Source of the DNA: a virus | Lineage: Duplodnaviria > Heunggongvirae > Uroviricota > Caudoviricetes | Virus record (IMG/VR): IMGVR_UViG_2667527582_000008 | Coordinates: 1-15,755 of that record | Strand: one strand, 5' to 3' | Length of the DNA stretch: 15,755 bases | Shown here: one piece after another, positions 1 through 15,180 of the stretch | How the letters are laid out: each line of letters begins with the position of its first letter | Position numbering within the stretch: position 1 is the stretch's first letter | Made by a program: the position numbers and the translations under genes | The notes under the pieces: model-generated | Database searches by the model: none | Seen by the model: only the letters and a program-made list of their open reading frames with translations | Told to the model about the DNA's origin: nothing

Positions 1-1194
1 GTGGCACGGACAACACGCCCCCTGACCAACACCGAAGTTCTGCGCGCAAAAGCAATCGATAAGGATCTAACGCTGCATGATGGCGATGGACTTTTCCTGC
101 TAGTGAAAACCAGCGGCAAGAAACTATGGCGCTTTCGCTATCTACGTCCGGCAACAAAGCAGCGGACCATGATGGGGCTCGGAGCCTTCCCCTCCCTTTC
201 ACTTGCTGATGCTCGAAGTCTAAGAGCGGATTACCTTGCTTTACTAGCCAACAAAATCGACCCACAAATTCAAGCCGAAGCCGCAGAGGAAGAGCAGCAA
301 ATCGCTCTGGAAAGTATTTTTTCAACGGTCGCCGCTAACTGGTTCAAGCTAAAAAGCAAAAGCGTTACCCCTGACTACGCAAAAGACATTTGGCGCTCAC
401 TGGAGAAAGACGTATTTCCTGCAATCGGTGAAATCCCTGTTCAGCAAATCAAAGCACGAACATTGGTTGAAGCCCTTGAGCCAATAAAAGCTCGTGGAGC
501 GCTTGAGACGGTACGTCGACTGGTGCAGCGTATTAACGAGATAATGATTTATGCCGTAAACACTGGTCTGATTGATGCAAACCCAGCATCAGGTGTTGGA
601 ATGGCCTTTGAAAAGCCAAAAAAACAAAATATGCCGACGCTTCGGCCAGAAGAATTACCAAAGCTGATGCGTTCTCTAGTAATGTCAAATCTATCTGTTA
701 CGACTCGCTGTCTCATTGAATGGCAGCTTCTGACCCTTGTGCGTCCTTCTGAAGCATCTGGTACTCGGTGGGCAGAGATCGATCTCGAAGCAAAGCTCTG
801 GACCATTCCAGCCGAACGTATGAAGGCTAAGCGCGAGCACATAGTTCCACTATCTCTTCAGGCATTAGAGATTCTTGATGTTATGAAGCCTATCAGTGCG
901 CATCGTGAACATGTTTTTCCGAGTCGGAATGACCCAAAGCAACCAATGAATAGCCAGACGGCAAATGCTGCTTTAAAACGGATTGGATATGGGGGTAAAT
1001 TAGTTGCACATGGTTTACGCTCTATAGCGAGTACAGCAATGAATGAAGCTGGTTTAAATTCAGATGTGATTGAAGCAGCGCTTGCTCACATTGAGAAGAA
1101 TGAGGTTCGCAGAGCATACAATCGTTCCACTTACCTTGAAAAAAGAAAGGGCCTTATGAATTGGTGGGGCAATTTCATAGTGAATAGCAAGTAA
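1..1194 (+). CDS. int: P4-type tyrosine integrase; start at or just beyond the window edge
   Basis: 397-codon ORF from the window edge (GTG at 1) to TAA at 1192-1194. N-terminal LTNTEVLRAKA...DGDGLFLLV...GKKLWRFRY matches the arm-binding N-terminus of P4-family integrases; C-terminal HGLRSIAS and RAYNRSTY match the tyrosine-recombinase catalytic boxes. Confidence 0.9.
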   Translation: MARTTRPLTNTEVLRAKAIDKDLTLHDGDGLFLLVKTSGKKLWRFRYLRPATKQRTMMGLGAFPSLSLADARSLRADYLALLANKIDPQIQAEAAEEEQQIALESIFSTVAANWFKLKSKSVTPDYAKDIWRSLEKDVFPAIGEIPVQQIKARTLVEALEPIKARGALETVRRLVQRINEIMIYAVNTGLIDANPASGVGMAFEKPKKQNMPTLRPEELPKLMRSLVMSNLSVTTRCLIEWQLLTLVRPSEASGTRWAEIDLEAKLWTIPAERMKAKREHIVPLSLQALEILDVMKPISAHREHVFPSRNDPKQPMNSQTANAALKRIGYGGKLVAHGLRSIASTAMNEAGLNSDVIEAALAHIEKNEVRRAYNRSTYLEKRKGLMNWWGNFIVNSK

Positions 1195-1204
1195 GGATAT
1201 AAAA

Positions 1205-2320
1205 ATGAGCACGAGAGAATTCCCATGCAAAGCATCAAATATTTATGATAAAAATATTAACTTTCTATTTGGCTCAGGAGCTTCAGCATCGTATATACCA
1301 ACGCTGTGGCTTGCTGAAAACACCACTTATGAGACATTATTAACGCATAAAGATTGTATCGATGTTAAGGATTTTATCTTATGTTCTTATTTCAATAAAA
1401 TCATTAGAAAAACATTTTGCATTGAGCCAAGTGTAGAAAACAAAAAATACACCTCAACAATAAATAGCTATACAGATTTTCTAGATGAACTTGTTACTTT
1501 ATTAGAAAAAAAAGGCTCCAATCAAATAAGACGAGCCAATATTTTCACAACTAACTATGATCTTTTTTTTGAAACAGCAGCAGACAATGCATTAGCTAAG
1601 AAAACATTCCATTTCAATGATGGTGCTATAGGTTTTAAAAACAGAAGATTAAACATTAGTAATTTTCATATTACTACTTGGCATCAAGGAACTCATGATA
1701 TGTACAAACATGAGTTACCAACTATCAATTTAATTAAAATGCATGGTTCGGTCTCATGGAAAAGAGATGAGAATGAAACAATAAGCATCAACTACCCAAG
1801 TGTTTCACCTGAATTAATAAATTTAGAGACAGATAAAACCATAGATGATTTAGTAATTACCCTAAATACAACTAACGATGATCTAGCTGATTACTTGGAT
1901 TTAAATGCTAATGACCAAAATTCTCTTGAAGAATTCAAATCATACTATAACTCACTCGCGATAGTTAATCCGACCAAAGAAAAGTTTTCAGAAACAGTAT
2001 TTCAGCAACACTACTATCAGAGCTTAAGATTATTAAGCTATGAATTAGAGAAACCACAAACTGTATTAATTTGTTTTGGGTTTTCATTTCAAGACGAGCA
2101 CATTCTTGAAATAATAAAAAGATCTTTAAGTAATCCAACACTAAAAGTATTTGTTTTTTGCTACAACAATCAAAGCAAGCAAGATATAAATAATACAGTA
2201 AATGACCCCAGAATAACCTTCATTTATCCTAAAGAAGTTGATCATAAAATTTCTTTTGATACTTTTATTGATAGAATTTTCAAATCAGAAACAGGAGATT
2301 GGGTAACATGGACGAACTGA
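1205..2320 (+). CDS. SIR2-family (sirtuin-like NADase) protein, first gene of a SIR2-HerA type anti-phage pair
   Basis: ATG at 1205 with AAGGA 7 nt upstream, 10 nt after int stop. Motifs read from translation: FLFGSGASASYIPT (Gly-rich NAD-binding loop), IFTTNYD (defense-type SIR2 motif), KMHGS (candidate catalytic His). No CxxC...CxxC zinc ribbon. Gene is AT-rich. Confidence 0.8.
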   Translation: MSTREFPCKASNIYDKNINFLFGSGASASYIPTLWLAENTTYETLLTHKDCIDVKDFILCSYFNKIIRKTFCIEPSVENKKYTSTINSYTDFLDELVTLLEKKGSNQIRRANIFTTNYDLFFETAADNALAKKTFHFNDGAIGFKNRRLNISNFHITTWHQGTHDMYKHELPTINLIKMHGSVSWKRDENETISINYPSVSPELINLETDKTIDDLVITLNTTNDDLADYLDLNANDQNSLEEFKSYYNSLAIVNPTKEKFSETVFQQHYYQSLRLLSYELEKPQTVLICFGFSFQDEHILEIIKRSLSNPTLKVFVFCYNNQSKQDINNTVNDPRITFIYPKEVDHKISFDTFIDRIFKSETGDWVTWTN

Positions 2321-4077
2321 ATATAGGTAAAGTGACCCAAGTAAAAGGAACCACTGTCAAAGCAAAAATAAACCATGACTTGTTCCAATCAACATACTTC
2401 CACAATGGAAAAATATTGCGTGGTATATCAATAAATGAATTTGTATTAGTTCGTAAAGGTTATCAGGACATTGTAGGTAAGATCATAGGTGAGGAAATTG
2501 TTGAGAACTTTAACATTCGTACTGATGACATTGAGCAGAAAAAATATGAAAGATTCGTTGAACTAAATATTCTCGGGTATTTTTTTGAGGGTAAATTCTA
2601 CTCTGGAATAAAATATCTCCCAATGATAAATGATAGACTTTATTTAATTTCGGATGATAAAATATCTGAAATTTATAGTTTTAGCAAAAATACAAAAACT
2701 CCGCTCATTAACATTGGCAAATCCATGCTAGAGGAATTACCAATAAACATTCCCATAAACGGTGTTTTTAATTCTCATATAGGTATTTTTGGAAATACAG
2801 GAAGTGGAAAGTCAAATACTCTAGCAAAAATATATCAATCACTTTTCAATAGAATTGAAAACAAACAACAATTGATCGATAAGTCAAATTTCGTATTGAT
2901 TGATTTCAATGGTGAATATGGGACATTAGAGAATTCCTTTCCAGAACTATGTCACTCCACAAAACTTAGCACAAAAAAAGATGGTGATAAGATATATTTC
3001 GGTGAAAAAGAATTTTGGGATGATGAACTGTTGTCAGTTTTATTCTCTGCAACCGAGAAAACACAAAAACCATTTCTTACACATTTAATAAAGAGCAAGT
3101 TAAAATATGATGACGATCTTAACACATATTTAAAAAGAACAATTGAAATAATGTTTGGAACAAATCCTCACAAAGAGACCGTTAATTTATTAAAAAGTCT
3201 ACTGCCTTATTTCGATGAGAGCGATCAACAAAAGATACGAGATGAACTATCTCTCTTTACTTGGCATTCAAACCAAGAAAAATATACACATCCTTCGAGT
3301 TGGCTTGACACTACTGCTGAAGTTTTAAAACACACTCAAGCAACATACAATAGCCAATTCCATGTTACTAGTGTATTTGATGAAATTGCTATACGTGCAA
3401 CACTGCAATTAATAAATTCTGTATCCAGAAACTATGTTCAATATGATCACATATATCCTTTGATAAACAAAATAATAGCAATGAGCTCATCTCTAGCAAA
3501 GGTTATAGAAATAAACCGCGCTCAACAAAGCTATAAACCAATATCCATAATCTCTCTCAAAGAATGCAATCAAACCATAAAAAAAACGATTCCGATGATG
3601 ATTGCGAAATGTTCCTTCATAGATCACAAATCTTCGGACAACAAAAAAGAAAGCTTTCATTTAATAATAGATGAAGCTCACAACATTCTTTCCGAAAGCT
3701 CTGTGAGGGAGGCTGAGACTTGGAAAGATTATCGACTTGAATTATTTGAGGAGATAATAAAGGAAGGTAGGAAGTTTGGTTATTTTGTAACTATTTCAAG
3801 CCAGCGACCATTTGATATATCGCCAACAATCGTATCACAACTTCATAATTATTTCATACATCGCTTGGTAAATGAAAACGACCTTTACCTTCTTAAAAAC
3901 ACCTTAAGTACATTAGATGCAGCATCCAGAACACTTATACCTACCCTTCCTCCAGGCGCATGCATAATTTCGGGAACAGCATTTCATACTCCGCTTCTTG
4001 TGCAGATCGATAGACTTTCTGAAGAAAGTGCACCGCAAAGTGACACGCTCGATCTTGAGAGTCTGTGGCGTCTTTAA
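2308..4077 (+). CDS. HerA-like P-loop ATPase, partner of the upstream SIR2 gene
   Basis: Walker A GIFGNTGSGKSNT at nt 2791-2814; Walker B / DEAH-like HLIIDEAHN at nt 3661-3684. ATG at 2308 with AGGAG 10 nt upstream is preferred over the track's TTG at 2299. Overlaps the SIR2 stop by 13 nt, implying translational coupling. About 589 aa, AT-rich. Confidence 0.8.
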   Translation: MDELNIGKVTQVKGTTVKAKINHDLFQSTYFHNGKILRGISINEFVLVRKGYQDIVGKIIGEEIVENFNIRTDDIEQKKYERFVELNILGYFFEGKFYSGIKYLPMINDRLYLISDDKISEIYSFSKNTKTPLINIGKSMLEELPINIPINGVFNSHIGIFGNTGSGKSNTLAKIYQSLFNRIENKQQLIDKSNFVLIDFNGEYGTLENSFPELCHSTKLSTKKDGDKIYFGEKEFWDDELLSVLFSATEKTQKPFLTHLIKSKLKYDDDLNTYLKRTIEIMFGTNPHKETVNLLKSLLPYFDESDQQKIRDELSLFTWHSNQEKYTHPSSWLDTTAEVLKHTQATYNSQFHVTSVFDEIAIRATLQLINSVSRNYVQYDHIYPLINKIIAMSSSLAKVIEINRAQQSYKPISIISLKECNQTIKKTIPMMIAKCSFIDHKSSDNKKESFHLIIDEAHNILSESSVREAETWKDYRLELFEEIIKEGRKFGYFVTISSQRPFDISPTIVSQLHNYFIHRLVNENDLYLLKNTLSTLDAASRTLIPTLPPGACIISGTAFHTPLLVQIDRLSEESAPQSDTLDLESLWRL

Positions 4078-4432
4078 TTCAATTGCCGCCTAATCCTCAT
4101 CTTCATCATGAAGACGCATTTGATGGAGTTGCAAAGATGGAAATAGGCCACGCCCTAAAGGCGTTGGCCTAAATTGGCGTAACATTTAAACACATGCAAA
4201 ACCATGCATCCTATAGAGGTTTATGCCTTGATAAACAGCCTCTCAAAGATTCAACCTCACCTTTTTATTACTCCATATACGGCTGTTCTCAATTTTAGAC
4301 TTTAACCTCATACGCTGGGTTGTTTAACCCTAGCTCACTGACTTCCTTTTGCTTCCTTACAGCGTACAAAATAGCAAGCCCCCCCTTATTTACCCTACCG
4401 CATTATCGATGAGTTGTATGCTCGGCATCCTT

Positions 4433-5467
4433 TTACCTCGAAGCGCGCGCTCGTAGCCCCGCCACGCCTGCCCGCTTTAGGGAGTGGTTTTCATGCAGTT
4501 GCATGATAGGCTCTAAACCGCGCCTTATCTGGTCTGGGAAGTAAAAATGCAAGTGCATAAAGTCATGCGATTTCATGCAGTATAGACATGCACTCAGGCT
4601 ATAGACATCAAAAAACCCGGCACTGGCCGGGCTTAAGTGAGCTTTTCTGTTCAGGTCAAAACAGCTTACTTTTTTTCTGTCGTCATGCGATCCTGATACT
4701 GGAGCTGAACCGGTCAGGCTCATCACGTCGTCCCGGAATCTTAACGGTAATATTTCATTCGTCCACTTCAGCATTAGATTCAGGATAAATTCACGATACA
4801 GCGTATCTGCATCATTTGTGCCTTCAATAATGCCCGGTATATGTGCTGAGCTATATCGCTCAAATTGTCTGTACTTCATCCTGAGCAGGCCGCTCAATTC
4901 GGCACCGTGGAAAATAAAAAAGTCTCGTAAAAGCTCATCGATACGCTCCTCAGTGATGCCATGATGGCAGTTTATATAAACGTTTGCCTTACGCGTGGTC
5001 GCTTGAGCCAGTACCGGCAGCTGATCTTCTTTTTCAGTAATCAGCCCGGCGAGTTCTGTGGCTGTTTCCTGTTGTTCCAGATACTCAGCCCGGAGAGCTT
5101 TCATCTCCGGCGTTACGATGCCGCCGCTCTGGTTAAGCAGTTCCCTGAACTGCGCCCGATTGTCTTTGCTGGCCTGCTCAGTTTCGGTCTGATGCTGGCG
5201 CAGAGCCCTGAGGTTCTCAATGGCTGCTTCTTCGGCCTGTCTGGCCTCCACCCAGGCCTGCATTTTTTGGTAAAGGTCGATAATTCGGGACTGCCAGTCG
5301 GAGGAAAGGCTTTTTGTCAGTTTTTCCGTCTCGCGGGCGATTTCATTTGCAGGCAAATTCATGAGCCAATCCGCATCCTGAAGCGGTTTTTTTGCCCTCG
5401 CGAGGAGTGTTACTACGTGTCCGGTTGCGGCCTGAATCTGGTTTTCCGTCAATTGTTGTTCTGTCAT
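4433..5467 (-). CDS. Satellite late-operon protein, Sid-like paralog (hypothetical); 3' end uncertain
   Basis: ATG at 5467-5465 with GGAGG 9 nt upstream, 19 nt after the delta-like stop. N-terminal half is coiled-coil-like and shares motifs with ORF 6312-7064 (FRE..Q..MTP.MK.LRAE; S..IG.V..TNDP...L..FI). The frame runs without a stop through the terminator hairpin and the cos-like GC spot, so the last ~70 codons may not be real. Confidence 0.55.
   Translation of the reverse strand: MTEQQLTENQIQAATGHVVTLLARAKKPLQDADWLMNLPANEIARETEKLTKSLSSDWQSRIIDLYQKMQAWVEARQAEEAAIENLRALRQHQTETEQASKDNRAQFRELLNQSGGIVTPEMKALRAEYLEQQETATELAGLITEKEDQLPVLAQATTRKANVYINCHHGITEERIDELLRDFFIFHGAELSGLLRMKYRQFERYSSAHIPGIIEGTNDADTLYREFILNLMLKWTNEILPLRFRDDVMSLTGSAPVSGSHDDRKKVSCFDLNRKAHLSPASAGFFDVYSLSACLYCMKSHDFMHLHFYFPDQIRRGLEPIMQLHENHSLKRAGVAGLRARASR
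4610..4631 (-). terminator. Intrinsic terminator-like hairpin on the minus strand, inside the 3' part of ORF 4433-5467
   Basis: Minus strand reads CCCGGC-CAGT-GCCGGG followed by TTTTTT: a perfect 6-bp GC-rich stem, 4-nt loop and U-tract. Confidence 0.5.
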
Positions 5468-5486
5468 ATTTTTGTTCCTCCCCAAT

Positions 5487-5759
5487 TTATTGTGCATGAC
5501 GGTCTTTAAGGGTACAGGCTGAACCGTAGCGGCCCAGTGTATGCGGCTGACGTACAAGAGAATCGCTCTGTGATTCAGGTTCAGGCGCCACTGGTTTATG
5601 GGGCTTCATAATTATCGTGTCCACACTTTCCAGGGCAGTAAATGTGCAGGAGCATTCAAGATTCTGGCACTGATACCATGAGCGTTTAACCGATGGAGCT
5701 TCATAGGCGCTGGTTCTGGCGTGTGCGACCGTGCCACATTCAGGACATTTCAGGGCCAT
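5487..5759 (-). CDS. Ogr/Delta-family zinc-finger late transcriptional activator
   Basis: 90-aa protein MALKCPECGTVAHARTSAYEAPSVKRSWYQCQNLECSCTF with the CxxC...CxNxxC zinc finger and HARTS/YxQCxN signature of P2 Ogr / P4 Delta. AGGAGG 8 nt upstream of ATG at 5759; starts 2 nt after the psu-like stop. Confidence 0.85.
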   Translation of the reverse strand: MALKCPECGTVAHARTSAYEAPSVKRSWYQCQNLECSCTFTALESVDTIIMKPHKPVAPEPESQSDSLVRQPHTLGRYGSACTLKDRHAQ

Positions 5760-5760
5760 A

Positions 5761-6315
5761 TCAGTCCCCTCCTTTTTCATTAAGCCTGTTGAGGCGGGCC
5801 AGAAAAACTTTATGTTTTGCCGGGGTGAAAATGGCTGAAGCATCAGCTCGCATTGATGCATCCACCGTTAATCCGGTTTCGTCGATAACGCTCTTATATG
5901 CTGCTGAAATTACAGGAGTACGGATTTCGGTTTGTCGGACTACAGCGGTGCGTAATATTTTCATTGCCGCCTCAAGCCCGTATGGTGCGCAAAGAAAAGG
6001 AGCCAGAGCGTCAGTGAGTGCATTACCATGCTCGCTCATGAAGTTTTCAGTTGCGCCTGTAACACAGCTTTCCAGCACAATCTGGTGAGCATAAAGACCG
6101 TCCCTGGCGGCGCAGTTAATCTGCCATTCGAGGAGAGCAATACGCTCACGAAGATTCTCAAGCTGGCTGGCATATGCTGCCGGTTTTTCTTCAGTATCCA
6201 GCAGAGCCGCCAGACGAAGTTGGCTGGTACTTTGCACATTACGTAGTGTCAGCCAGCTTTTTATCGCCGCGCGATAGTTGTTGAGAGCTTCCTTAGTAAT
6301 GTTTCCAGGATTCAT
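5761..6315 (-). CDS. psu: Psu-like protein (polarity suppression / capsid decoration family)
   Basis: 184-aa protein; segments HGNALTDALAPFL and FTPAKHKVF resemble P4 Psu as recalled from memory (not searched). Start ATG overlaps the upstream gene stop (ATGA). Confidence 0.7.
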   Translation of the reverse strand: MNPGNITKEALNNYRAAIKSWLTLRNVQSTSQLRLAALLDTEEKPAAYASQLENLRERIALLEWQINCAARDGLYAHQIVLESCVTGATENFMSEHGNALTDALAPFLCAPYGLEAAMKILRTAVVRQTEIRTPVISAAYKSVIDETGLTVDASMRADASAIFTPAKHKVFLARLNRLNEKGGD

Positions 6316-7064
6316 CCTTTCTCTTCCCCTTTAACCATGTCACGCTGTTTAAGCATCCGGGAACGCGCTGCAGGGCTGGGTGATTGCCTGGCATCCTGTA
6401 GGGCTTTATCGTCCGCATAAATGCTAATCCCCGGCAGGGCAATAACATCCGTTGAAGATACGTTACAGGACAGTGCCGGAGCGGTGAGTTGCTCGCTGAT
6501 AAATTGCTTCAGCACACTTTCGGGGTCGTTTACGGTATGAACTACGCCGATAACGGAAGAAGCGCTTCGCCCCAGAGTCATTTTCAGCAATCCAAGGATC
6601 TGAATAAGTTTCTGGCCGTGTTCCTTCATAAACTCATTCCAGAGCCACTCTGCATGAGTTTCAATCAGCCGGTTATGTTCGCTGATGTAGCGGTTTGCAG
6701 CATCCGCAGTTTTCCAGGGCAGGAATTCTTTTTCTGCGGCGTGAGCTTCAAGCAAATCTTCGAACTCATCAAGTGTTTCGCGTCCCAGGGCGATTTCTGC
6801 ACGCAGTTTTTTCATTCGTGGCGTCATATTCCCCTGATTCTCACGAAACAGGTTTCGCCATTCATCATTAAGCGCCTGCGTCTCCGTTTTTGTATCTTCC
6901 TGACGTTTACGGATAGTTTCAGTCATTGCAGCGGCTTCAGTTTGTATTCGCCGTTCTTCCTGCCAGACAGCTTTTGCTGCTTTAACTTTTTCTACCGCTT
7001 CGCGAATTTTCGGTGGGAGGGAGGGTGTAATGTTTGCATCAGGGATCTGGTTAACAGTTGTCAT
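6312..7064 (-). CDS. Satellite late-operon protein, Sid-like (candidate capsid-size determination scaffold); paralog of ORF 4433-5467
   Basis: ATG at 7064-7062 with GGAG 5 nt upstream is preferred over the track's TTG at 7097. Coiled-coil-like N-terminus; stop overlaps the psu-like start. Assignment as Sid is by position, size (~250 aa) and composition, not by a search. Confidence 0.55.
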   Translation of the reverse strand: MTTVNQIPDANITPSLPPKIREAVEKVKAAKAVWQEERRIQTEAAAMTETIRKRQEDTKTETQALNDEWRNLFRENQGNMTPRMKKLRAEIALGRETLDEFEDLLEAHAAEKEFLPWKTADAANRYISEHNRLIETHAEWLWNEFMKEHGQKLIQILGLLKMTLGRSASSVIGVVHTVNDPESVLKQFISEQLTAPALSCNVSSTDVIALPGISIYADDKALQDARQSPSPAARSRMLKQRDMVKGEEKG

Positions 7065-7165
7065 GGCTGCTCCGGTAGTGTTTTGTTGTTGTGTCAATTG
7101 TGCCGGTGCCCATACAAGCGCACTACCGATGAGGATTGTGCCAGTGACTGAACAATGACCTTGTT

Positions 7166-7177
7166 CTGGCTAGCCAG
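7166..7177. promoter_or_regulatory. Perfect 12-bp palindrome CTGGCTAGCCAG upstream of the late operon; candidate operator or activator site
   Basis: Sequence reads the same on both strands; lies about 100 bp upstream of the Sid-like start (7064) in ORF-free DNA. Confidence 0.3.
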
Positions 7178-7219
7178 AGAAAGGTGTCATGTCTGAGCTT
7201 CACCCTTCCTTTAATACAT

Positions 7220-7435
7220 ACTATTCACTACTGTTCACTTTCATAAAAGAATAGTAAATACATGTGGTTAAGGAGTGCAGGGTTTAAATAAAAGTGGTCA
7301 TCTACTGTTCATGACTGTTCACAGAGATAAATTTAACTTATATTTGTTTTTCATATAAATCGCGATATTTATTTCAGTTTATTACTGGATTTTTATTCCT
7401 CACCACTATTCACACGTATTCAACACTATTCAATA
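7220..7435. repeat. Cluster of iteron-like ACT(A/G)TTCA(C) repeats; candidate replication origin / primase-binding repeats or regulator sites
   Basis: Copies at about 7220-7228, 7229-7238, 7303-7311, 7314-7323, 7404-7413, 7416-7424 and 7425-7434, plus an inverted copy near 7148-7153, all in ORF-free AT-rich DNA. They resemble the TGTTCACC-type repeats of the P4 ori/crr regions as recalled. Confidence 0.4.
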
Positions 7436-7967
7436 TACAGTATAAAACGTGTCTTATGTCTGTTTAAAAATTCAACACTTAACCTCCCTACACTCGGTTG
7501 CATTTCAGGAAAATATCCATAAAAATGAATCTGTCTGATGCTCATTAAACACATCCGGATAAATTCGGAAGGATGCGGGTAATTTAATTTTTTTAGCCAT
7601 TAACTTAATTAATACATATGATGAACTGTTTTTTATGAACGTTTTTTGGCCCTTTTATTATTCCGGCGCTGTTTTCATCCTTATGATGTAACGCCCGGAA
7701 TGATATGGTCTGGTACAGACTTGAGCGGCGATCCTGCCTGGTGTAATAGACTTTTTTATTCTTGAAGCTCCTTATTATATTCCATGAAGGAATGATTTGT
7801 TTTTGTCCGTTTTATCCGGTTTTTAGCTGTTTTATTTTTTGAGAAGTCAATATTTCTCTCTAATTAAATAAAGCATGCGCGAGCCGCTTATATGAACATA
7901 ATAAGGAACTACCTGAATCCGGATGGAATTGTCCGGACTACTGAAAACATATTAGAGAGGTAGCGAA

Positions 7968-8092
7968 ATGCATACTATTTCCGTTTCCACCCCAGCACCA
8001 GCTGCTCCGGTGCTCCCGATTCCGACTGAGCAGGAGCGCTTCATACGATTACCTGAAGTGATGCACCTTTGCGGGCTATCCCGTTCAACCAT
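7968..8092 (+). CDS. AlpA-family phage transcriptional regulator, 5' portion only (cut by gap)
   Basis: ATG at 7968 preceded by GAGAGG; translation MHTISVSTPAPAAPVLPIPTEQERFIRLPEVMHLCGLSRSTI carries the RLPEV...GLSRSTI helix-turn-helix signature of AlpA-type regulators; runs into the N gap at 8093. Confidence 0.55.
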
Positions 8093-8102
8093 NNNNNNNN
8101 NN
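8093..8102. other. Assembly gap (10 N)
   Basis: Run of n; interrupts the AlpA-like CDS. Confidence 0.95.
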
Positions 8103-8192: not shown

Positions 8193-8576
8193 TTATTTTC
8201 CGTGGCCAAAATTCAGAATTCTCCCATCATTTTTGCCTATTTCTATAATAAAAACCCCACCAGCAATTTGGTCTGAGTGAATGGTACCTTCAACAACCCA
8301 ACTTGTTGTTAACTCAGTGATTTCGTATGGTTTTTCTTCTTCTGCGGCATCCTGTCCATAACGATTCTTAACATATATCTCAGCTAATTCCAATGCTATA
8401 GCTTTATTTTTAACCAAATTTCTAACGGTATATTTACCTTCACTTTCATACTTGCGCATTATTTTAATATTATTATTACACTGCGCCCATGTGTTGTATG
8501 TAAAAACAAACAAAGATACAATGACACAGTTCCTAAACAATATTTTTTTACATATTACCATGAACTCTGCAGACAT
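8193..8576 (-). CDS. Putative Rhs immunity protein for the toxin at 8548-9176
   Basis: 127-aa ORF directly after and overlapping the toxin gene; ATG at 8576 with AAAGGA 7 nt upstream; AT-rich. N-terminus is hydrophobic ([16 protein letters not shown]), which suggests a signal peptide or membrane anchor. Confidence 0.5.
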
Positions 8577-9176
8577 TAGGTAATCCTTTTCTGTTTGTTA
8601 TTTCCTTCCCGTGGTTATCTATTGCTTTAAAATTACCACTGGGCGTACCTAAATAAAATGACTTGATATTGTTATCTTTACTTTTAACTATTTTCTCATC
8701 TTTACCTGAAAATATTTCGTCCCAATATTCTCCATGACTATCTGCACCATGAGTATGATAAGCTGATACTTTCTCAGTACCATTAGGGCAAGGGCTATTG
8801 AATGGATATGATCCTTTTCTTTCTCCTCGGTTAGGTGCTGTTGAGAAATATCTGCCACTATTATCCTTACATATTAAACCAGCGAACTCTTTATCTTCGC
8901 AAATAGATTGGCTATTTATTTTATTTAAGGCGTCATATGCGGTGCTATCTATAGAATCAAATTTATCTGGACCTATCATAGCGGATAGTGTGCCGCAAAG
9001 ACCATTAGTACATGCCCCCGATTTTGCATCCTCCCACATAGATAAACCCAGGGGGTCGATGTCTGATATCGGATTCAATTGATATCCATACAGGTTCCAT
9101 CCCCCCTTCAGTCCAATCGGATCCTGAGTGATATATCGCCCCTGCAGCGGGTCATAATAGCGGTGGCGGTTGTAAT
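8548..9176 (-). CDS. Rhs C-terminal fragment: end of the conserved core plus a variable toxin domain of unrecognised family; 5' cut by gap
   Basis: Translation [44 protein letters not shown] is the conserved Rhs core end (DPxGL boundary); it is followed by ~165 aa of AT-rich, Cys-containing variable sequence ending at TAA 8548. Confidence 0.8.
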
Positions 9177-9186
9177 NNNNNNNNNN
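9177..9186. other. Assembly gap (10 N)
   Basis: Run of n inside the conserved Rhs core. Confidence 0.95.
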
Positions 9187-9448: not shown

Positions 9449-9482
9449 GGCTATCTTTTTTTATCGTTTGACTGTCTGGAGT
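9449..9482. repeat. 34-bp repeat, copy 2 (33/34 identical to 8107-8140)
   Basis: GGCTATCTTTTTTTATCGTTTGACTGTCTGGAGT; here it forms the last codons and stop of Rhs toxin 2. Confidence 0.8.
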
Positions 9483-9935
9483 GACGACAATTCCAGGCTT
9501 TCTGTGTGCTTTTTGCATCTTTAGCACTAATATCACCACAATCAATTAGTTCCTGAAGTACGTCACATCTGTCGGGTTTTTTCCCATCACTCCAGAATCT
9601 GTCATTTATTATGTCATTGACACGATCAGTTATCCCTGTGTCTGCAACATTTCCACGAGAAGCTATCATTGTTATATCTAATGCTAGTCCCGGATTATTC
9701 AATATTAGAGAGTCAAATATTCTTTGTGATGCTGTATCGTTCCACCATTTTGTCAATGCTTTTGCAGCATTATCATCTGCTTGCTGCTGTGCAGGGCTTT
9801 TGGGCCATGGAATTGGCAAGGGGAATGGTCTAGGAAAAACTTCTAACCCCAGAGGATCTGTATTCGTAACTGGATTCAACGGATACTGATAAAAATTCCA
9901 TCCCCCCTTCAGCCCAATCGGATCCTGAGTGATAT
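9451..9935 (-). CDS. Rhs C-terminal fragment: end of the conserved core plus a second, different variable toxin domain; 5' cut by gap
   Basis: Upstream codons read [30 protein letters not shown] (Rhs core end with DPxGL), followed by ~130 aa of variable sequence ending ...SRQSNDKKR. Confidence 0.8.
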
Positions 9936-9945
9936 NNNNNNNNNN
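9936..9945. other. Assembly gap (10 N)
   Basis: Run of n between the Rhs core and the truncated cbeA-like gene. Confidence 0.95.
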
Positions 9946-10594
<649 letters not shown>

Positions 10595-11378: not shown

Positions 11379-12476
11379 TTATTCAAGATATAAGGATTGC
11401 TCAATGAACTGACTGGCACCACATAAATGAACTTTAACCTCACGCTCACCAAAAAACGCCTGCCAATATTTTTTTATATCCTTTTCTTTTTCTTTATCTC
11501 TTTCATATGTTACGACTTCAATTTTAACACTTCGTTTAATCATTCGAGATAAAAGTTGTCTCATTTCAAAATCGGCATTCGGCAACGAATAACCTATGAA
11601 GATTATTTTGTCAGCTTCAGATAATTCAATACCAGCGTTCTGCCAAATTATTTTGTATTGAGGATTTGATAGATCCTTTAGAAAGGTAGGCATAATAAGA
11701 TTTGATATCAGTCTATTCTCTTTATTTACTGCGTCATGATTTTTATCACAATGCCTACATGTTGCCCCTCTCGCAACCCCTATTTTTTTATTAAACCCGA
11801 CATAAAGGCGCATGCATCGCGAACATTGTAGCCAGTTAAGTGAACCATGAATCTTCAGCAGTTTCACATTAAAACCACCTGCTCCTAACATTTCTAGACC
11901 CGGCTTTACCGTTTCGTCCCTTTCTTCTAAGGAGCTTATATAACAGCAATAATCAACAACTGCACGTCCGTGGTAGTTCCTTTGGATATAATCATACAAT
12001 GAATTATCTAGTAGAATATCCCAGTTGGTACTAATAACGCTTACAGAATCATGCTGTCTATAATTACCACCCAGCCTCTCGCTACATTTCCTCACTAAAT
12101 ACTCAGCAAAGTGGTCAATATATTCCTTACTATTCCCTTTTCTTTCCAAGATCCTCCTAATGGCCAAACCAATGATATTAAAAACAGCATCCCTTGTCTT
12201 TGTCATTTGCTCAATAGACAGACCTCTAAACTGGATATTATCCGCCAAGCACCGGTCTAAAGGAGTGAACATATCTTCAATCTGAACATCTTTAAATTGC
12301 TCACGTTTATAATATAATTGTTCAGTAAGTAAGTTTTCAAAAAGCTGAAAATCTGAACCATTAAAATAGTTTGAATTCTCTTGGTGTATTTTAAATATCT
12401 CACCCATTATTTCCGCCTGCATAGGCGCGCCAGCTTCTTTTGAAAATCCAGCGCCAAGCACAAATACAGTTTTCAT
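11379..12476 (-). CDS. Standalone SIR2-like (sirtuin-fold) protein with Cys4 zinc ribbon; candidate single-gene NAD-depleting defense effector
   Basis: ATG at 12476 with AAGAGG 6 nt upstream (track's TTG at 12482 not preferred). Translation has VFVLGAGFS at residues 5-13, VISTNWD, and KIHGSLNW followed by CSRC-(18 aa)-CRHC, the sirtuin-type zinc ribbon placement. No N- or C-terminal extra domain (365 aa). AT-rich, with terminator-like hairpins on both sides and a candidate promoter. Confidence 0.75.
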   Translation of the reverse strand: MKTVFVLGAGFSKEAGAPMQAEIMGEIFKIHQENSNYFNGSDFQLFENLLTEQLYYKREQFKDVQIEDMFTPLDRCLADNIQFRGLSIEQMTKTRDAVFNIIGLAIRRILERKGNSKEYIDHFAEYLVRKCSERLGGNYRQHDSVSVISTNWDILLDNSLYDYIQRNYHGRAVVDYCCYISSLEERDETVKPGLEMLGAGGFNVKLLKIHGSLNWLQCSRCMRLYVGFNKKIGVARGATCRHCDKNHDAVNKENRLISNLIMPTFLKDLSNPQYKIIWQNAGIELSEADKIIFIGYSLPNADFEMRQLLSRMIKRSVKIEVVTYERDKEKEKDIKKYWQAFFGEREVKVHLCGASQFIEQSLYLE

Positions 12477-12490
12477 CCACAACCTCTTAA

Positions 12491-12569: not shown

Positions 12570-12886
12570 CTATTTTGTGATTTCGAGACTGCACTTCGGT
12601 AGCCAGTCAGCATTGCATTCTTCTCTAAGTGCCAGATTGGTCTGCATTCCCTGATTGGTCCGCCGCTTCTCGTACTGCAGCCCATACTCTTTCAGCATTA
12701 ACGGCAGCCCCTTGCCAAACATGGTCAGACTGAGCGTATTTTTATAGCCGTTGGCTTCCATGTAGACCAGATAGGCATGGTAAAGGTATGTACGTGGCTG
12801 GCGCGGGACAATATTGGCGTTCCCCATAAACATGCCGTTGGTGTCGGGTAATGCCTCAAGATAGCCACAAAAATCAAATGCTGGAT
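12570..12886 (-). CDS. C-terminal fragment of a P4-family (alpha-like / D5-like) primase-helicase; 5' cut by gap
   Basis: Translation ...PRQPRTYLYHAYLVYMEANGYKNTLSLTMFGKGLPLMLKEYGLQYEKRRTNQG... shows the aromatic-rich ...Y..Y.....NG......S...F...L...G pattern typical of the C-terminal domain of P4-type primases; stop TAG at 12570. Confidence 0.55.
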
Positions 12887-12896
12887 NNNNNNNNNN
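12887..12896. other. Assembly gap (10 N)
   Basis: Run of n; the track ORF 12570-13190 that spans it fuses two unrelated proteins and is an artefact. Confidence 0.95.
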
Positions 12897-13190
12897 ACCA
12901 CCCTGTTGCAGCAGGATCAGCCACGGACTCTGCCCGCCTGCAAGCTGCGTGGCCACGTCGGTGAACTGCGCAGGCAGCATACGCATGGCGGCTTTATACT
13001 GCCCGACGGAAATCCCCGCTTTCTGTGCAGCCAGCGCCTGCCGGCTCATCGACTGTTCAACGACTGCCGCTGTTTTTTTCGCATCACTTTCCGTACCGGA
13101 AAAATGACGCCTGACTCTGGCCATCTGCTCGTCAAATCTGGCCGCATCCAGACTCAAATCAACGACCAGATCGCCTACCGGTTCAGCCAT
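12897..13190 (-). CDS. H: Tail tape measure protein, N-terminal 98 codons only (cut by gap)
   Basis: MAEPVGDLVVDLSLDAARFDEQMARVRRHFSGTESDAKKTAAVVEQS...QFTDVATQLAGGQSPWLILLQQGG matches the lambda gpH N-terminus as recalled; ATG at 13190. Confidence 0.9.
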
Positions 13191-13620
13191 ACCGGACTCC
13201 TCCTGCGATCCCTTCTGATACTGTCATCAGCATTACGTCATCCTCCGTCATGTCCGCCACATCCGGGGAAGCGGGGATAACTTCATTCCCGTCCGGGCCA
13301 AAACGAACGCCTCCGGCAAGCCCTGCCGCTTTCTGCATCAGCACATCATCTTCAGGCTCTTCGTCAGCCTCACGCCGGTTCAGCAGACTGAAATCCAGCG
13401 GATGCATCTCCGGATCGCTGAAAAACAGGCTGAGCACGGTGTACGTCAGCCCGGAAAAGTGCATATCCAGCAGAACATCATGAAAATAATGGGTACTGTA
13501 AAAGCGGTGCCAGTCGGCATACTCCGTGGATGACATCCCGGCAAGCATGGCACGCCAGTCGGGTCGCCCCATCTCACGCGCCAGTTTCAGGGCAAAACTC
13601 AGCTCACCGTCGAACACTTT
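13183..13620 (-). CDS. T: Tail assembly chaperone T segment, expressed as a G-T fusion by -1 programmed frameshift
   Basis: ORF in the -1 frame relative to G, opening at the slippery site and ending overlapping the H start; translation ends ...MFDGELSFALKLAREMG..., lambda T-like. Confidence 0.8.
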   Translation of the reverse strand, partial: KVFDGELSFALKLAREMGRPDWRAMLAGMSSTEYADWHRFYSTHYFHDVLLDMHFSGLTYTVLSLFFSDPEMHPLDFSLLNRREADEEPEDDVLMQKAAGLAGGVRFGPDGNEVIPASPDVADMTEDDVMLMTVSEGIAGGVRYG

Positions 13621-14021
13621 CCCGCAGAAACAGGCTCTGCAGGCCCGGCGTCCTCTGCCTGTTCAGGAGCATCATTCACCACAAACTCATACATACCGGA
13701 CAGCCGGTACACCACGTTTTCAGCATGAGAAATTGCCTCTGTGGGCCAGGTGGTAAGCACTTCCTGCTCAATCTGTTTAACGGCTTCATTCATGGACGGC
13801 ATCTGCGTCTTCTGCGGATGGTTATGCCACAGGGACATCGCCACCAGAAACGCGCCGGTTCTGATGGCGTCTTCCACAGTAAACTTCCGGTTGCTGTCTG
13901 ACTCCGCCTGTTCTGCCTGCCGTTTCATCAGGGCGAGATGCTCAATACGCTGCAGGGCTGACAGTTCAGAAAGCGTGACGGTCACGCCGTTATGTTCAAA
14001 TGATTCGGTTTTCAGGAACAT
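13599..14021 (-). CDS. G: Tail assembly chaperone G
   Basis: 140-aa protein MFLKTESFEHNGVTVTLSELSALQRIEHLALMKRQAEQAES..., near-identical to lambda gpG as recalled. Confidence 0.9.
   Translation of the reverse strand: MFLKTESFEHNGVTVTLSELSALQRIEHLALMKRQAEQAESDSNRKFTVEDAIRTGAFLVAMSLWHNHPQKTQMPSMNEAVKQIEQEVLTTWPTEAISHAENVVYRLSGMYEFVVNDAPEQAEDAGPAEPVSAGKCSTVS
13617..13623 (-). promoter_or_regulatory. Programmed -1 ribosomal frameshift slippery heptamer GGGAAAG (G to G-T)
   Basis: Minus strand reads G GGA AAG about 16 nt upstream of the G stop codon; the T frame opens exactly here. Confidence 0.75.
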
Positions 14022-14036
14022 CGCTGACTCTCCGGA

Positions 14037-14777
14037 TTAACTGTCGGTGACAGTGATTTCTGCAACCGCAGCAAGTTCACCATTACCGGATACAACCGGA
14101 ATGTTGACCTTACCTGCAGCAACGCCTTTCACGGTGATGGTTATACCACTGACCGACACGGTGGCTTTTGTTTTATCCGCTGACACCGCACGGAAGCTCT
14201 TGTCAGTTGCGCCCTCCGGCTGGAATGCCACGGTCAGCGTGGTGCTCTGCCCTTTCACCACCGAGGAGCTGGCAGGCGTCACGGTCATACCGGTTGCCGC
14301 CGTCACCGTACTGCGATCTTCTGCCATTGACGGACGGCCCACATTGGTGACCTTCACCGTACGGGTGATCACTTCCTTCGCCGTCACCGCCTTACCGATA
14401 CTGCTGACCCAGCCACGGAACACATCGACCGTGCCGTTCGGGAAGCGGATTTTATAGGCACGGGTATCACCTTCATTAAACCACGCCAGCAGCGCCTGCT
14501 GCCCCTGCTCTCCGGGCATCCACGCCAGCGTGAAGCTGGTATCTCCGGCGGATTTCTGCCCCTGCCCGGTCGCGGTCCAGTCCGCATCTTCATCATCGAG
14601 ATAACTGTCGTCATAGGACTCAGCGGTCAGTTCGCCGGGCGTCAGGTCTTTAACTTTTGCCAGACGCGACCAGTCAACGTCTGAAAGCGGGTTCGCATAA
14701 GGGTCACCGCTCCCCTTATAAACCCACAGGGTGGTCCCGGCACCTTTCACCGGCATTGTAGGATTTGGTACAGGCAT
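14037..14777 (-). CDS. V: Major tail tube protein V
   Basis: 246-aa protein from ATG at 14777: [45 protein letters not shown]..., lambda gpV-like including the C-terminal Ig-like region. Confidence 0.9.
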
Positions 14778-14784
14778 AGCGTCC

Positions 14785-15180
14785 TCACATTTCATAGGTA
14801 ATGACATAAGTCAGATCGGCTGAACTCCACAGGCCCGCATCATCGTCGCGCCGGTAGTCATAGCCACTGGCCACCATACTGGTGATCAAATCTGACAGTG
14901 CCGGGATATCGCTCATCACCGGATAAATCCGGGACTCCATCCACGCATCCAGCTCTGAATCCGGCACCTGAGCAGGCAGGAAAACTTCGATATGCAGCTC
15001 CGCCTGCCAGGTATCGCTGTCCAGCTCTTCGCCCGTGTATTCAGCGCCGGTGAGATAAACGGCAATTGCCGGAAAATCTTCCTCATCAAAAACAGCGGGG
15101 CGACCATCAAAAAGCGTCGCCCCGGTGTCATGCTTCTCCAGTGCATCCAGTACGGCTGCACGGAGTTCAGTATGTTTCAT
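14785..15180 (-). CDS. U: Tail terminator protein U
   Basis: 131-aa protein [52 protein letters not shown]..., lambda gpU-like. Confidence 0.9.

What the first reader, a model, noticed from the sequence alone, without database searches (positions are those of the whole stretch)
1205..4077. SIR2 + HerA-like ATPase two-gene cassette in the integrase-proximal cargo slot of a P4-like satellite
Seen in sequence: two translationally coupled genes (13-nt overlap); the first has Gly-rich NAD loop, TTNYD and HGS motifs, the second has Walker A (GNTGSGKS) and Walker B/DEAH (IIDEAHN). Both are strongly AT-rich and sit between the integrase and the cos/psu side of the satellite. Established knowledge: this pairing matches the SIR2-HerA anti-phage system, and the int-to-psu interval of P4-like satellites is a known defense hotspot. 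The system type is known, but this is the clearest complete immune system in the window, and a second, unrelated SIR2 gene lies elsewhere on the scaffold.
Basis: partly seen in the sequence, partly recalled or inferred. Interest (0 to 1): 0.65.

Follow-up and report, generated by a model that had tools for sequence, protein, structure and literature searches.

The report
SIR2-HerA defence cassette in P4-like satellite
The two overlapping genes are an intact SIR2-HerA anti-phage system in the known cargo slot of a P4-like phage satellite, an arrangement already catalogued in E. coli, so the finding is correct but ordinary.

Summary
It has two intact genes: sir2 at 1205-2320 (371 aa) and herA at 2308-4077 (589 aa). 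They overlap by 13 nt, have 30-33% GC against about 46-47% in the flanks, and carry all the quoted motifs.

- PADLOC HMMs give SIR2 2.7e-66 and full-length HerA 1.2e-199.
- The AlphaFold model of the Sir2 matches only Sir2 subunits of solved SIR2-HerA complexes before any canonical sirtuin.
- The catalytic Asn117/His180 and Walker A Lys168 align with residues whose mutation kills characterised systems.
- The gene pair is conserved as far as Listeria and Gilliamella, and dN/dS is 0.04-0.10.

The cassette lies between a P4-type integrase and a cos-like block, followed by delta, psu and sid. In E. coli genomes with the same flanks, unrelated cargo fills this interval.

Rousset et al. 2022 already list SIR2+HerA among the systems in this P4 hotspot. 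Their table contains the HerA accession of a 76%-identical relative. The exact Sir2 protein is already in NCBI.

Two caveats apply. This lineage is only about 17% identical to Nezha and falls below NCBIfam equivalog cut-offs, so its trigger is unknown. The window is a scaffold with four 10-N gaps, so the "second SIR2" is on another contig.

The parts
1..1194 (+). P4-type tyrosine integrase; left border of the cargo slot
   Evidence: Pfam Arm-DNA-bind_3, Phage_int_M and Phage_integrase. It equals the int next to ssrA in E. coli S21. Homology with satellites carrying other cargo stops at about 1170-1175.
1193..1197 (+). Shine-Dalgarno-like AAGGA for sir2, overlapping the int stop codon (1192-1194)
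   Evidence: Read from the sequence. The 10-nt int-sir2 gap is conserved in the 86% and 76% variants.
1205..2320 (+). sir2: SIR2_2-family NADase effector, 371 aa; Gly loop 23-27, catalytic Asn117 (TTNYD) and His180 (HGS)
2293..2297 (+). Shine-Dalgarno AGGAG for herA, inside the 3' end of sir2
   Evidence: Read from the sequence.
2308..4077 (+). herA: HerA/FtsK-type hexameric ATPase, 589 aa; N-terminal beta-barrel, Walker A 162-169 (Lys168), Walker B Asp455-Glu456, invariant Arg500
4078..4442 (.). 365-bp non-coding spacer that travels with this version of the cassette; contains a stem-loop at about 4145-4170 with no U-tract
   Evidence: Found only in the 3 E. coli genomes with the near-identical cassette. 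It has no ORF of 50 aa or more and no Rfam hit. Fold.
4443..4600 (.). cos-like conserved block (GCGCGC..CCCCGCCACGCCTGCCCGC plus ATGCA repeats); right border of the cargo slot
   Evidence: Conserved among satellites with different cargo and backbone. About 75% identical to non-coding DNA of P2-like phages. The canonical P2/P4 19-mer was not found, so the cos assignment is inferred.
4613..4634 (-). Intrinsic-terminator-like hairpin ending the satellite late operon
4656..5467 (-). Psu-like paralogue (context, variable between satellites); its 3' end is frameshifted here by a T7/T8 homopolymer difference
5487..5759 (-). Ogr/Delta zinc-finger late activator (context)
5761..6315 (-). psu polarity-suppression / capsid decoration gene (context)
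6312..7097 (-). sid-like capsid size determination gene (context)

Best explanation
The locus is a complete two-gene SIR2-HerA abortive-infection defence system. It is carried as cargo in the cos-adjacent int-psu hotspot of a P4-like phage satellite; the near-identical element in E. coli S21 sits at the tmRNA gene ssrA.

Proposed mechanism:
1. sir2 and herA are translated from one mRNA (13-nt overlap). That mRNA probably continues from the integrase gene, because the gap is only 10 nt and no promoter-like site lies in it.
2. HerA forms a hexameric ATPase ring. Its N-terminal barrel docks a ring of Sir2 subunits, and the complex stays quiescent in uninfected cells.
3. Phage infection changes the state of the HerA-Sir2 assembly. 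The cue may be replication proteins, DNA ends or ATP drain; it is unknown for this lineage.
4. The Sir2 active site (Asn117/His180) then hydrolyses NAD+ to ADP-ribose and nicotinamide.
5. NAD+ collapse arrests the infected cell. This stops phage production and protects sister cells and the resident satellite.

Shown here: gene identity, intactness, catalytic residues, fold, conserved pairing, purifying selection, and location in a variable cargo slot.

Inferred from characterised relatives: complex formation, NADase activity, the abortive outcome, the trigger, and co-transcription with int.
For: Family assignment. PADLOC SIR2 2.7e-66 and HerA 1.2e-199 over the full length. Pfam SIR2_2 and HerA central domain both pass their cut-offs.

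Catalytic residues.
- Sir2 Asn117/His180 align with SaSir2 N226/H287. H287 mutation abolishes NADase activity (PMC11514289).
- HerA Lys168 aligns with K157 of the 8XAU HerA. K157A abolishes defence (PMC11291478).
- These residues are invariant in 42 Sir2 and 37 HerA homologues down to 38-45% identity.

Fold.
- Sir2 AlphaFold model: pLDDT 83. Foldseek ranks 1-37 are all Sir2 chains of E. coli, S. aureus and Paenibacillus SIR2-HerA complexes (E 4e-15 to 4e-10). Canonical sirtuins follow only at 1e-3.
- HerA model: pLDDT 81. Top hits are HerA of SIR2-HerA, DUF4297-HerA and HerA-NurA.

Conserved pairing. The sir2-herA pair is adjacent or overlapping in Listeria and Gilliamella, outside any satellite.

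Selection. dN/dS is 0.04-0.10 against the 86% and 76% nt variants, with no indels against S21 inside the cassette.

Context.
- Window 1-8092 is 99.5% identical to the element ssrA-int-SIR2-ATPase-...-psu-sid-...-primase in E. coli S21.
- Other genomes share the flanks but carry Dcm+HEPN+DUF262, or DUF3226+AAA, in the same interval.
- Rousset 2022 defines this hotspot and lists SIR2+HerA in it. Their Table S1A has 'SIR2_2 + DUF87' with WP_032172094, the HerA of the 76% relative in strain C11.
Against: - There is no functional data for this lineage.
- It is only about 15-18% identical to solved Sir2 proteins and 16-20% to solved HerA proteins.
- It scores far below the NCBIfam equivalog cut-offs: SIR2_antiphage 86 bits against 500, and HerA_antiphage_2 123 against 850.
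- Zhang et al. 2026 tested representatives of eight E. coli Sir2-HerA clusters and reported robust defence for four of them, with differing mechanisms and non-interchangeable HerA partners. Activity and gating therefore cannot simply be transferred to this lineage.
- No sigma-70-like promoter was found upstream of sir2 beyond chance, so expression is unproven.
- The AT-rich cassette could be silenced.
Confidence: 0.87

Rival explanations
1. It is a SIR2-HerA system, but of a mechanistically distinct subtype. It would differ from Nezha's passive ATP-gated model, for example through a specific phage-protein trigger or a HerA nickase step as in E. coli type III, or through an effector output other than simple NAD+ hydrolysis.
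For: - Sequence identity to Nezha is about 17%, and the cassette falls below the NCBIfam equivalog cut-offs.
- By sequence, the closest solved HerAs are those partnered with DUF4297 nucleases: 8xau at 1.7e-30 and 9c1m at 8.7e-28, against Nezha 8j4u_M at 2.5e-22.
- Zhang 2026 shows that E. coli subtypes differ in spectrum, catalytic repertoire and gating.
Against: - The same catalytic dyad and the same fold class as all solved HerA-associated Sir2 proteins.
- Nothing in the sequence points to an added domain.
- The lineage is not type III by residue numbering. Type III has Sir2 N238 and HerA D218; here the equivalents are N117 and T218.
Confidence: 0.35
2. The cassette chiefly serves the satellite rather than the host. 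It might act as an addiction or stabilisation module, or as a weapon against competing helpers and satellites. Its expression would be tied to integrase transcription.
For: - The 10-nt int-sir2 gap, with an SD overlapping the int stop, is conserved in three diverged lineages.
- int, sir2 and herA have co-diverged: 89/86/84% and 75/75/71% nt identity.
- No independent promoter was detected.
Against: - The same gene pair occurs outside satellites, in ordinary defence-island contexts next to TA and RM genes.
- Characterised relatives defend against unrelated lytic phages (PMC13434337).
- Benefit to the satellite and benefit to the host are not mutually exclusive.
Confidence: 0.15
3. The cassette is a silent or decaying remnant with no current function.
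For: - It is rare: 16 of 5426 complete E. coli genomes carry any version.
- It is strongly AT-rich foreign DNA.
- It has no recognisable promoter.
- The neighbouring psu-like gene carries a homopolymer frameshift in this assembly.
Against: - Both ORFs are full length, with all invariant residues intact.
- dN/dS is 0.04-0.10.
- All 12 differences from S21 inside the cassette are substitutions, with no indels.
- The exact Sir2 protein is found on 92 contigs across several enterobacterial genera.
Confidence: 0.05
4. The genes are housekeeping: a HerA DNA-repair helicase plus a protein-deacetylase sirtuin. They would not be an immune system.
For: HerA also matches archaeal HerA-NurA repair helicases. 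Sir2 distantly matches sirtuin deacetylases.
Against: - There is no NurA or Mre11/Rad50 partner.
- The Sir2 belongs to the SIR2_2 family. The gap from HerA-associated Sir2 hits (1e-10 or better) to canonical sirtuins (1e-3) is seven orders of magnitude.
- The cassette sits on a mobile satellite in a variable cargo slot.
Confidence: 0.01

Closest known systems
SIR2+HerA cargo of the P4-like psu-int hotspot (Rousset et al. 2022, PMC9122126; system type from Gao et al. 2020)
   Same: - The same slot, between int and the cos/psu side of a P4-like satellite.
- The same two-gene SIR2_2 + DUF87 architecture.
- Their Table S1A lists WP_032172094, the HerA of the 76%-identical relative found here at ssrA in E. 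coli C11.
   Different: The window carries a different allele, about 75% amino-acid identical to that relative. Neither was tested experimentally in that paper.
E. coli Sir2-HerA / Nezha (PDB 8J4U, 8SU9, 8UAE)
   Same: - Two-gene operon.
- Sir2 with the Asn/His dyad and HerA with Walker A/B.
- Sir2 fold is the best structural match class.
- Abortive infection by NAD+ depletion is the expected outcome.
   Different: - Only about 17-18% (Sir2) and 16% (HerA) identity.
- Sir2 here is shorter at the N terminus: N117, against about N165 in the 415-aa EcSir2.
- Below the NCBIfam equivalog cut-offs.
- Whether the C-terminal helix used for the EcSir2 dodecamer is present was not tested.
S. aureus SaSir2-HerA (PDB 8YHX/8YHO; PMC11514289)
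   Same: - Best HerA structural hit (8yhx_A, 2.2e-26).
- Catalytic N226/H287 align with N117/H180.
- The model is HerA-induced allosteric opening of the Sir2 active site.
   Different: - 15-20% identity.
- SaSir2 has a roughly 110-residue longer N-terminal part.
- SaHerA lacks ATPase activity, whereas here Walker A/B and Arg500 are invariant.
E. coli Sir2-HerA types I-III (Zhang et al. 2026, PMC13434337)
   Same: E. coli Sir2-HerA lineages that are 13-22% identical to Nezha. This cassette is likely to belong to one of the eight clusters they define.
   Different: - It cannot be mapped, because the supplement is not held.
- It is not type III by residue numbering: type III has Sir2 N238 and HerA D218; here N117 and T218.
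DUF4297-HerA (PDB 8XAU-8XAY, 9C1M)
   Same: Its HerA is the closest solved HerA by sequence (1.7e-30). Walker A K157 aligns with K168, and the HAS-barrel/RecA-like/helical-insert architecture is the same.
   Different: The effector there is a Cap4-like nuclease, not a Sir2, and the output is DNA degradation rather than NAD+ depletion.

Membership tests
SIR2-HerA anti-phage system (Gao 2020 type; PADLOC SIR2 + HerA) | A SIR2-family protein with the NAD-binding Gly loop and the catalytic Asn/His dyad | tested here: met
   Pfam SIR2_2 at 44.3 bits (cut-off 24.5) and PADLOC SIR2 at 2.7e-66. N117/H180 align with SaSir2 N226/H287. They are invariant in 42 homologues.
SIR2-HerA anti-phage system (Gao 2020 type; PADLOC SIR2 + HerA) | A HerA/FtsK-type ATPase with N-terminal barrel, Walker A and Walker B | tested here: met
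   PADLOC HerA at 1.2e-199, covering 3-588 of 589 aa, and Pfam DUF87 at 59.7 bits. K168, D455 and E456 are invariant. The model has beta strands over residues 5-113 followed by a RecA-like core, and all top Foldseek hits are HerA.
SIR2-HerA anti-phage system (Gao 2020 type; PADLOC SIR2 + HerA) | The two genes are adjacent, co-oriented and conserved as a pair across taxa | tested here: met
   The 13-nt overlap is seen here and in the 86% and 76% variants. The pair is also found in Listeria (1-nt junction) and in Gilliamella (4-nt overlap).
SIR2-HerA anti-phage system (Gao 2020 type; PADLOC SIR2 + HerA) | Sir2 fold of the HerA-associated clade rather than a deacetylase sirtuin | tested here: met
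   Foldseek ranks 1-37 are all Sir2 of SIR2-HerA complexes; canonical sirtuins start at E 1e-3.
SIR2-HerA anti-phage system (Gao 2020 type; PADLOC SIR2 + HerA) | [quoted passage not shown] | not testable with these tools
SIR2-HerA anti-phage system (Gao 2020 type; PADLOC SIR2 + HerA) | Infection-triggered NAD+ depletion and phage resistance | not testable with these tools
   Requires phage challenge and NAD+ assays.
Nezha / NCBIfam equivalogs SIR2_antiphage (NF042942) and HerA_antiphage (NF042943/4) | Score at or above the curated equivalog cut-off | tested here: not met
   Scores were 86.3 bits against 500, 122.6 against 800, and 123.3 against 850. The cassette is therefore a different sub-lineage of the same system type.
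E. coli type III Sir2-HerA (Zhang 2026) | Sir2 catalytic N238 and HerA nickase D218 | tested here: not met
   The catalytic Asn is N117 and HerA residue 218 is Thr. This is a comparison by numbering only, because the type III sequences are not held.
P4-like phage satellite | Core genes: P4-type integrase, psu, delta, sid and alpha primase | tested here: met
   int, Ogr/Delta, Psu and a Sid-like gene are in the window. The contig ends at 8092, before icd and the primase, but the 99.5%-identical element in S21 continues with HTH, icd, DUF5375 and primase-helicase.
P4-like phage satellite | A cos site shared with P2-like helper phages | tested here: inconclusive
   The canonical P2/P4 19-mer is absent at up to 3 mismatches. 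However, a block at 4443-4600 is conserved between satellites and is about 75% identical to non-coding DNA of P2-like phages.
P4 psu-int defence hotspot (Rousset 2022) | Conserved flanks with unrelated cargo in different genomes | tested here: met
   EC11 carries Dcm + HEPN + DUF262. MB06172 carries a hypothetical gene, a portal pseudogene, DUF3226 and an AAA ATPase. Break points lie at about 1175 and at 4443 or 5602.

The most novel reading that the evidence does not exclude
This Sir2-HerA lineage has compact Sir2 proteins (about 370-400 aa), is about 17% identical to Nezha, and has a HerA whose closest solved relatives by sequence partner with DUF4297 nucleases. It could be an uncharacterised functional subtype with its own phage trigger. 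In P4-like satellites it could be expressed as a downstream extension of the integrase transcript, so that immunity level would be set by satellite int regulation.
Probability: 0.15. Interest if true: 0.4.

Novelty: already known. Interest (0 to 1): 0.15.

Why it matters
The finding is a correct annotation, not a discovery. The system type, its abortive NAD+-depletion logic, the P4 psu-int hotspot, and the occurrence of SIR2+HerA in that hotspot are all published. The proteins are already in public databases, though RefSeq names them only 'SIR2 family protein' and 'ATP-binding protein'.

Its practical value is modest:
- It gives a clean, intact representative of a Sir2-HerA lineage for which I found no solved structure or trigger study.
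- It shows that int and the cassette have co-diverged across three satellite lineages.

Tried and rejected
- Canonical P2/P4 cos 19-mer (GGCGAGGCGGGGAAAGCAC) at up to 3 mismatches: no match. The cos assignment therefore rests on a conserved block shared with P2-like phages.
- Promoter scans of 1-1300 and 900-4800: nothing above chance upstream of sir2. The expression route is inferred only.
- Terminator after herA: none with a U-tract. There is only a stem-loop at about 4145-4170.
- Rfam on the whole window: no hits.
- Mapping the cassette to the eight E. coli clusters of Zhang 2026: no supplementary text is held. Only type III could be set aside, by residue numbering.
- NCBIfam equivalogs: matched but far below cut-off. 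I did not file the cassette as Nezha.
- I first read the window as a truncated satellite fused to other elements. That reading is wrong: the joins are 10-N scaffold gaps.
- The long ORF 4433-5557 (-), which appears to cross the cos block, is an artefact of a T7/T8 homopolymer difference.
- Rival readings rejected: DNA-repair HerA, deacetylase sirtuin, and decayed pseudogene.
Full report
**Observation**

The window has two co-oriented ORFs at the stated coordinates.
- ORF1 runs 1205-2320 (+), 371 aa, with an ATG start.
- ORF2 runs to 4077.

ORF2 can start at TTG 2299, but the ATG at 2308 is the better start. It is preceded by AGGAG at 2293-2297, and RefSeq annotates it in a 99.6%-identical copy. 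ATG 2308 to TGA 2320 gives the reported 13-nt overlap.

All quoted motifs are present.
- Sir2: GSGAS 23-27, TTNYD 115-119, HGS 180-182.
- HerA: GNTGSGKS 162-169, IIDEAHN 453-459.

GC is 30.4% (sir2) and 33.4% (herA), against 47.0% for the integrase gene and 46.1% for 4078-8092.

**What the genes are**

*Profile searches*
- Pfam assigns ORF1 to SIR2_2 and ORF2 to the HerA central domain, both above the gathering cut-off.
- PADLOC gives SIR2 2.7e-66 and HerA 1.2e-199, the latter covering residues 3-588 of 589.

*Solved structures by sequence*
- ORF1 matches only Sir2 subunits of SIR2-HerA complexes: 8j4u_A, 8yhx_G and 8w9l_A.
- ORF2 matches HerA proteins of DUF4297-HerA (8xau 1.7e-30, 9c1m 8.7e-28), then HerA of SIR2-HerA (8yho, 8wiv, 8j4u_M), then archaeal HerA.

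*Catalytic residues*
- The alignment puts Asn117 opposite SaSir2 N226 and His180 opposite H287. PMC11514289 proposes N226/H287 as the catalytic dyad, and a point mutation at H287 abolishes NADase activity.
- Lys168 aligns with K157 of the 8XAU HerA. The K157A mutant loses defence.
- The Gly loop, N117, D119, H180, the whole Walker A, D455/E456 and R500 are invariant in alignments of 42 Sir2 and 37 HerA homologues, down to 38-45% identity.

*Predicted folds*
- Sir2 model: pLDDT 83. It hits Sir2 chains of the E. coli, S. aureus and Paenibacillus SIR2-HerA complexes at ranks 1-37 (E 4e-15 to 4e-10). Canonical sirtuins follow only at 1e-3.
- HerA model: pLDDT 81. It has an N-terminal beta-barrel, a RecA-like core and a helical insertion, and it hits only HerA proteins.

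'DEAH' in IIDEAHN is therefore the Walker B of an ASCE HerA/FtsK ATPase, not an SF2 helicase motif.

**Is the pair a system, and is it alive?**

*Conserved pairing*
- The exact Sir2 sequence is already in NCBI. Its 90% cluster has 659 members on 92 contigs and carries NCBI names from Enterobacter kobei and 'MULTISPECIES'.
- HerA has 99% matches in E. coli and Enterobacter, and 92% matches in Klebsiella and Salmonella.
- Distant Sir2 homologues are each followed by a DUF87/HerA gene with an abutting or overlapping junction, outside any satellite. This holds in Listeria (40% identity) and in Gilliamella (47-48% identity). In Gilliamella the pair sits beside a toxin-antitoxin pair and a restriction-modification pair.

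*Selection and intactness*
- Against two diverged E. coli variants of the cassette (86% and 76% nt identity), dN/dS is 0.05 and 0.10 for sir2.
- For herA it is 0.04 against the closer variant; synonymous sites are saturated against the other.
- Relative to strain S21, the cassette differs by 12 substitutions and no indels.

The genes are intact and under purifying selection.

**Context**

*The element*
- Window 1-8092 is 99.5% identical to a region of E. coli S21.
- That region reads ssrA (tmRNA), integrase, SIR2 family protein, ATP-binding protein, hypothetical, ogr/Delta, psu, sid-like, HTH, icd-like, DUF5375 and primase-helicase.
- This is a P4-like satellite at the tmRNA gene.
- In the window the integrase carries Arm-DNA-bind_3, Phage_int_M and Phage_integrase domains. 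Ogr/Delta, Psu and a Psu-fold Sid-like gene are confirmed.

*The variable slot*
- Genomes with the same flanks carry different cargo in the interval. EC11 has Dcm + HEPN + DUF262. MB06172 has a hypothetical gene, a portal pseudogene, DUF3226 and an AAA ATPase.
- Homology breaks at about 1170-1175, inside the last codons of int.
- It resumes at 4443 (against MB06172) or at 5602 (against EC11).

*The right border*
- Position 4443 is the start of a block (GCGCGC..CCCCGCCACGCCTGCCCGC plus ATGCA repeats) conserved among satellites of different backbone.
- The block is about 75% identical to non-coding DNA of P2-like phages.
- I read it as the cos region, although the canonical P2/P4 19-mer is not present.

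*Distribution*
- Any version of the cassette is found in 16 of 5426 complete E. coli genomes.
- All three diverged versions I inspected sit in the same slot at ssrA, with the same 10-nt int-sir2 gap.
- int, sir2 and herA show parallel divergence. The cassette has therefore travelled with the integrase, while the psu side is mosaic.

**Comparison with what is known**

- Rousset et al. 2022 describe this psu-int, cos-adjacent hotspot and name SIR2+HerA (Gao 2020) among the known systems found in it.
- Their Table S1A lists 'SIR2_2 + DUF87' with HerA WP_032172094. That is the accession annotated in strain C11 for the 76% relative.
- Hochhauser et al. 2023 list the tmRNA locus as an E. coli defence hotspot that can hold P4-like satellites.
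- Zhang et al. 2026 show eight Sir2-HerA clusters in E. coli. They report robust defence for Nezha and types I-III, which are 13-22% identical to one another, differ in spectrum and gating, and have non-interchangeable HerA.

The window's proteins are about 17% identical to Nezha. They are far below the NCBIfam equivalog cut-offs. They do not fit type III residue numbering. I could not map them to a cluster because the supplement is not held. So this is a member of the SIR2-HerA system type, but not of the Nezha sub-lineage.

**Mechanism**

By analogy with the characterised systems (PMC11514289, PMC11472057, PMC13434337), I propose the following.
1. A HerA hexamer docks a Sir2 ring through its N-terminal barrel and holds it inactive.
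2. Infection remodels the assembly. The cue is unknown for this lineage.
3. Sir2 (N117/H180) hydrolyses NAD+, which causes growth arrest and aborts infection.

Expression probably depends on transcription reading through from int.
- The gap is 10 nt.
- The sir2 SD overlaps the int stop codon.
- No promoter-like site above chance lies upstream.

All of these steps are inferred, not shown.

**Caveats**

- The window is a scaffold, with 10-N gaps at 8093-8102, 9177-9186, 9936-9945 and 12887-12896.
- The finding lies wholly in the first contig.
- The 'second SIR2' (11379-12482, minus strand) is on the fourth contig, downstream of the 3' end of a P4-type primase gene. It shares only the HGS region with the first Sir2 and gives only weak SIR2 hits.
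- Whether it is physically linked to the cassette is unknown.

**Verdict**

The observation and the interpretation are both correct. The arrangement is already known, so interest is low.

Noticed in passing
window 8093-8102, 9177-9186, 9936-9945, 12887-12896: Four runs of exactly 10 N. The window is a scaffold of five contigs, so gene order and linkage across these points are not established. ORFs that span a gap, such as 12570-13190 (tape-measure N-terminus joined to primase C-terminus), are artefacts.
   Followed up: yes
window 11379-12482 (-): A second SIR2-like ORF of 367 aa with GAGFS, STNWD and KIHGS motifs plus CxxC...CxxC. It lies directly downstream of the 3' end of a P4-type primase gene. 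RefSeq calls it 'hypothetical', and it is present in 13 of 5426 E. coli genomes, in the one inspected (LR-21-1) at the primase end of a P4-like satellite. It has only weak SIR2 hits (PADLOC 6.8e-9; Pfam SIR2 0.005, below cut-off) and no PDB sequence match. It may be a single-gene SIR2 candidate at the other end of the satellite.
   Followed up: partly
window 4670-4676 (and 4378, 7334): The window has T7 where S21 and MB06172 have T8. This frameshifts the last codons of the psu-like gene and creates the spurious 374-aa ORF 4433-5557 (-), which runs through the terminator and the cos block. At least two of the three indel sites relative to S21 (4378 in a C run, 4669-4676 in a T run) fall in homopolymer runs, which suggests sequencing error or slippage.
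   Followed up: yes
window 4656-5467 (-): An extra Psu-like paralogue (PHROG 6165, 1.3e-20; no Pfam hit) lies between delta and cos. It is present in the window, S21 and MB06172, and absent from EC11, BKQWHE and C11. The right edge of the variable region therefore differs between satellites.
   Followed up: partly
window 4078-4442: A 365-bp non-coding spacer lies between herA and the cos block. It is found only in the three genomes with the near-identical cassette and is absent from the 86% variant. It has a stem-loop at about 4145-4170 with no U-tract, no ORF and no Rfam hit. Its function is unknown.
   Followed up: partly
window 1192-1212; L003 2698-2720: The int stop, a 10-nt gap and the first cargo gene are arranged identically for an unrelated cargo gene in MB06172. 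The first bases of both cargo genes are the same (ATGAGCAC). This suggests the exchange junction lies at or just inside the first cargo codons, and that plus-strand cargo is read with int.
   Followed up: no
window 8193-9174 (-) and 9451-9879 (-): Two orphan polymorphic-toxin C-terminal tips with the DPxGL junction motif lie on two short AT-rich contigs. One has a DUF4329 domain and is followed by an Imm-NTF2-2 immunity gene. The other has an Ntox34 domain. They look like Rhs-type toxin/immunity fragments.
   Followed up: partly
window 9975-10594 (+): A CbeA antitoxin / CbtA toxin type IV TA pair sits on the same contig as the second SIR2-like gene.
   Followed up: partly
window 12897-15755 (-): A lambda-like tail gene block (tape measure 5' end, T/G, V, U, Z), 98% identical to lambdoid phages such as mEp332 and 434. 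It is unrelated to the satellite.
   Followed up: partly
window 2308-4077: By sequence, the closest solved HerAs are those that partner with DUF4297 nucleases (8xau, 9c1m), not those from SIR2-HerA complexes. By fold, the SIR2-partnered HerAs rank first. This is consistent with effector swapping on a common HerA chassis.
   Followed up: partly
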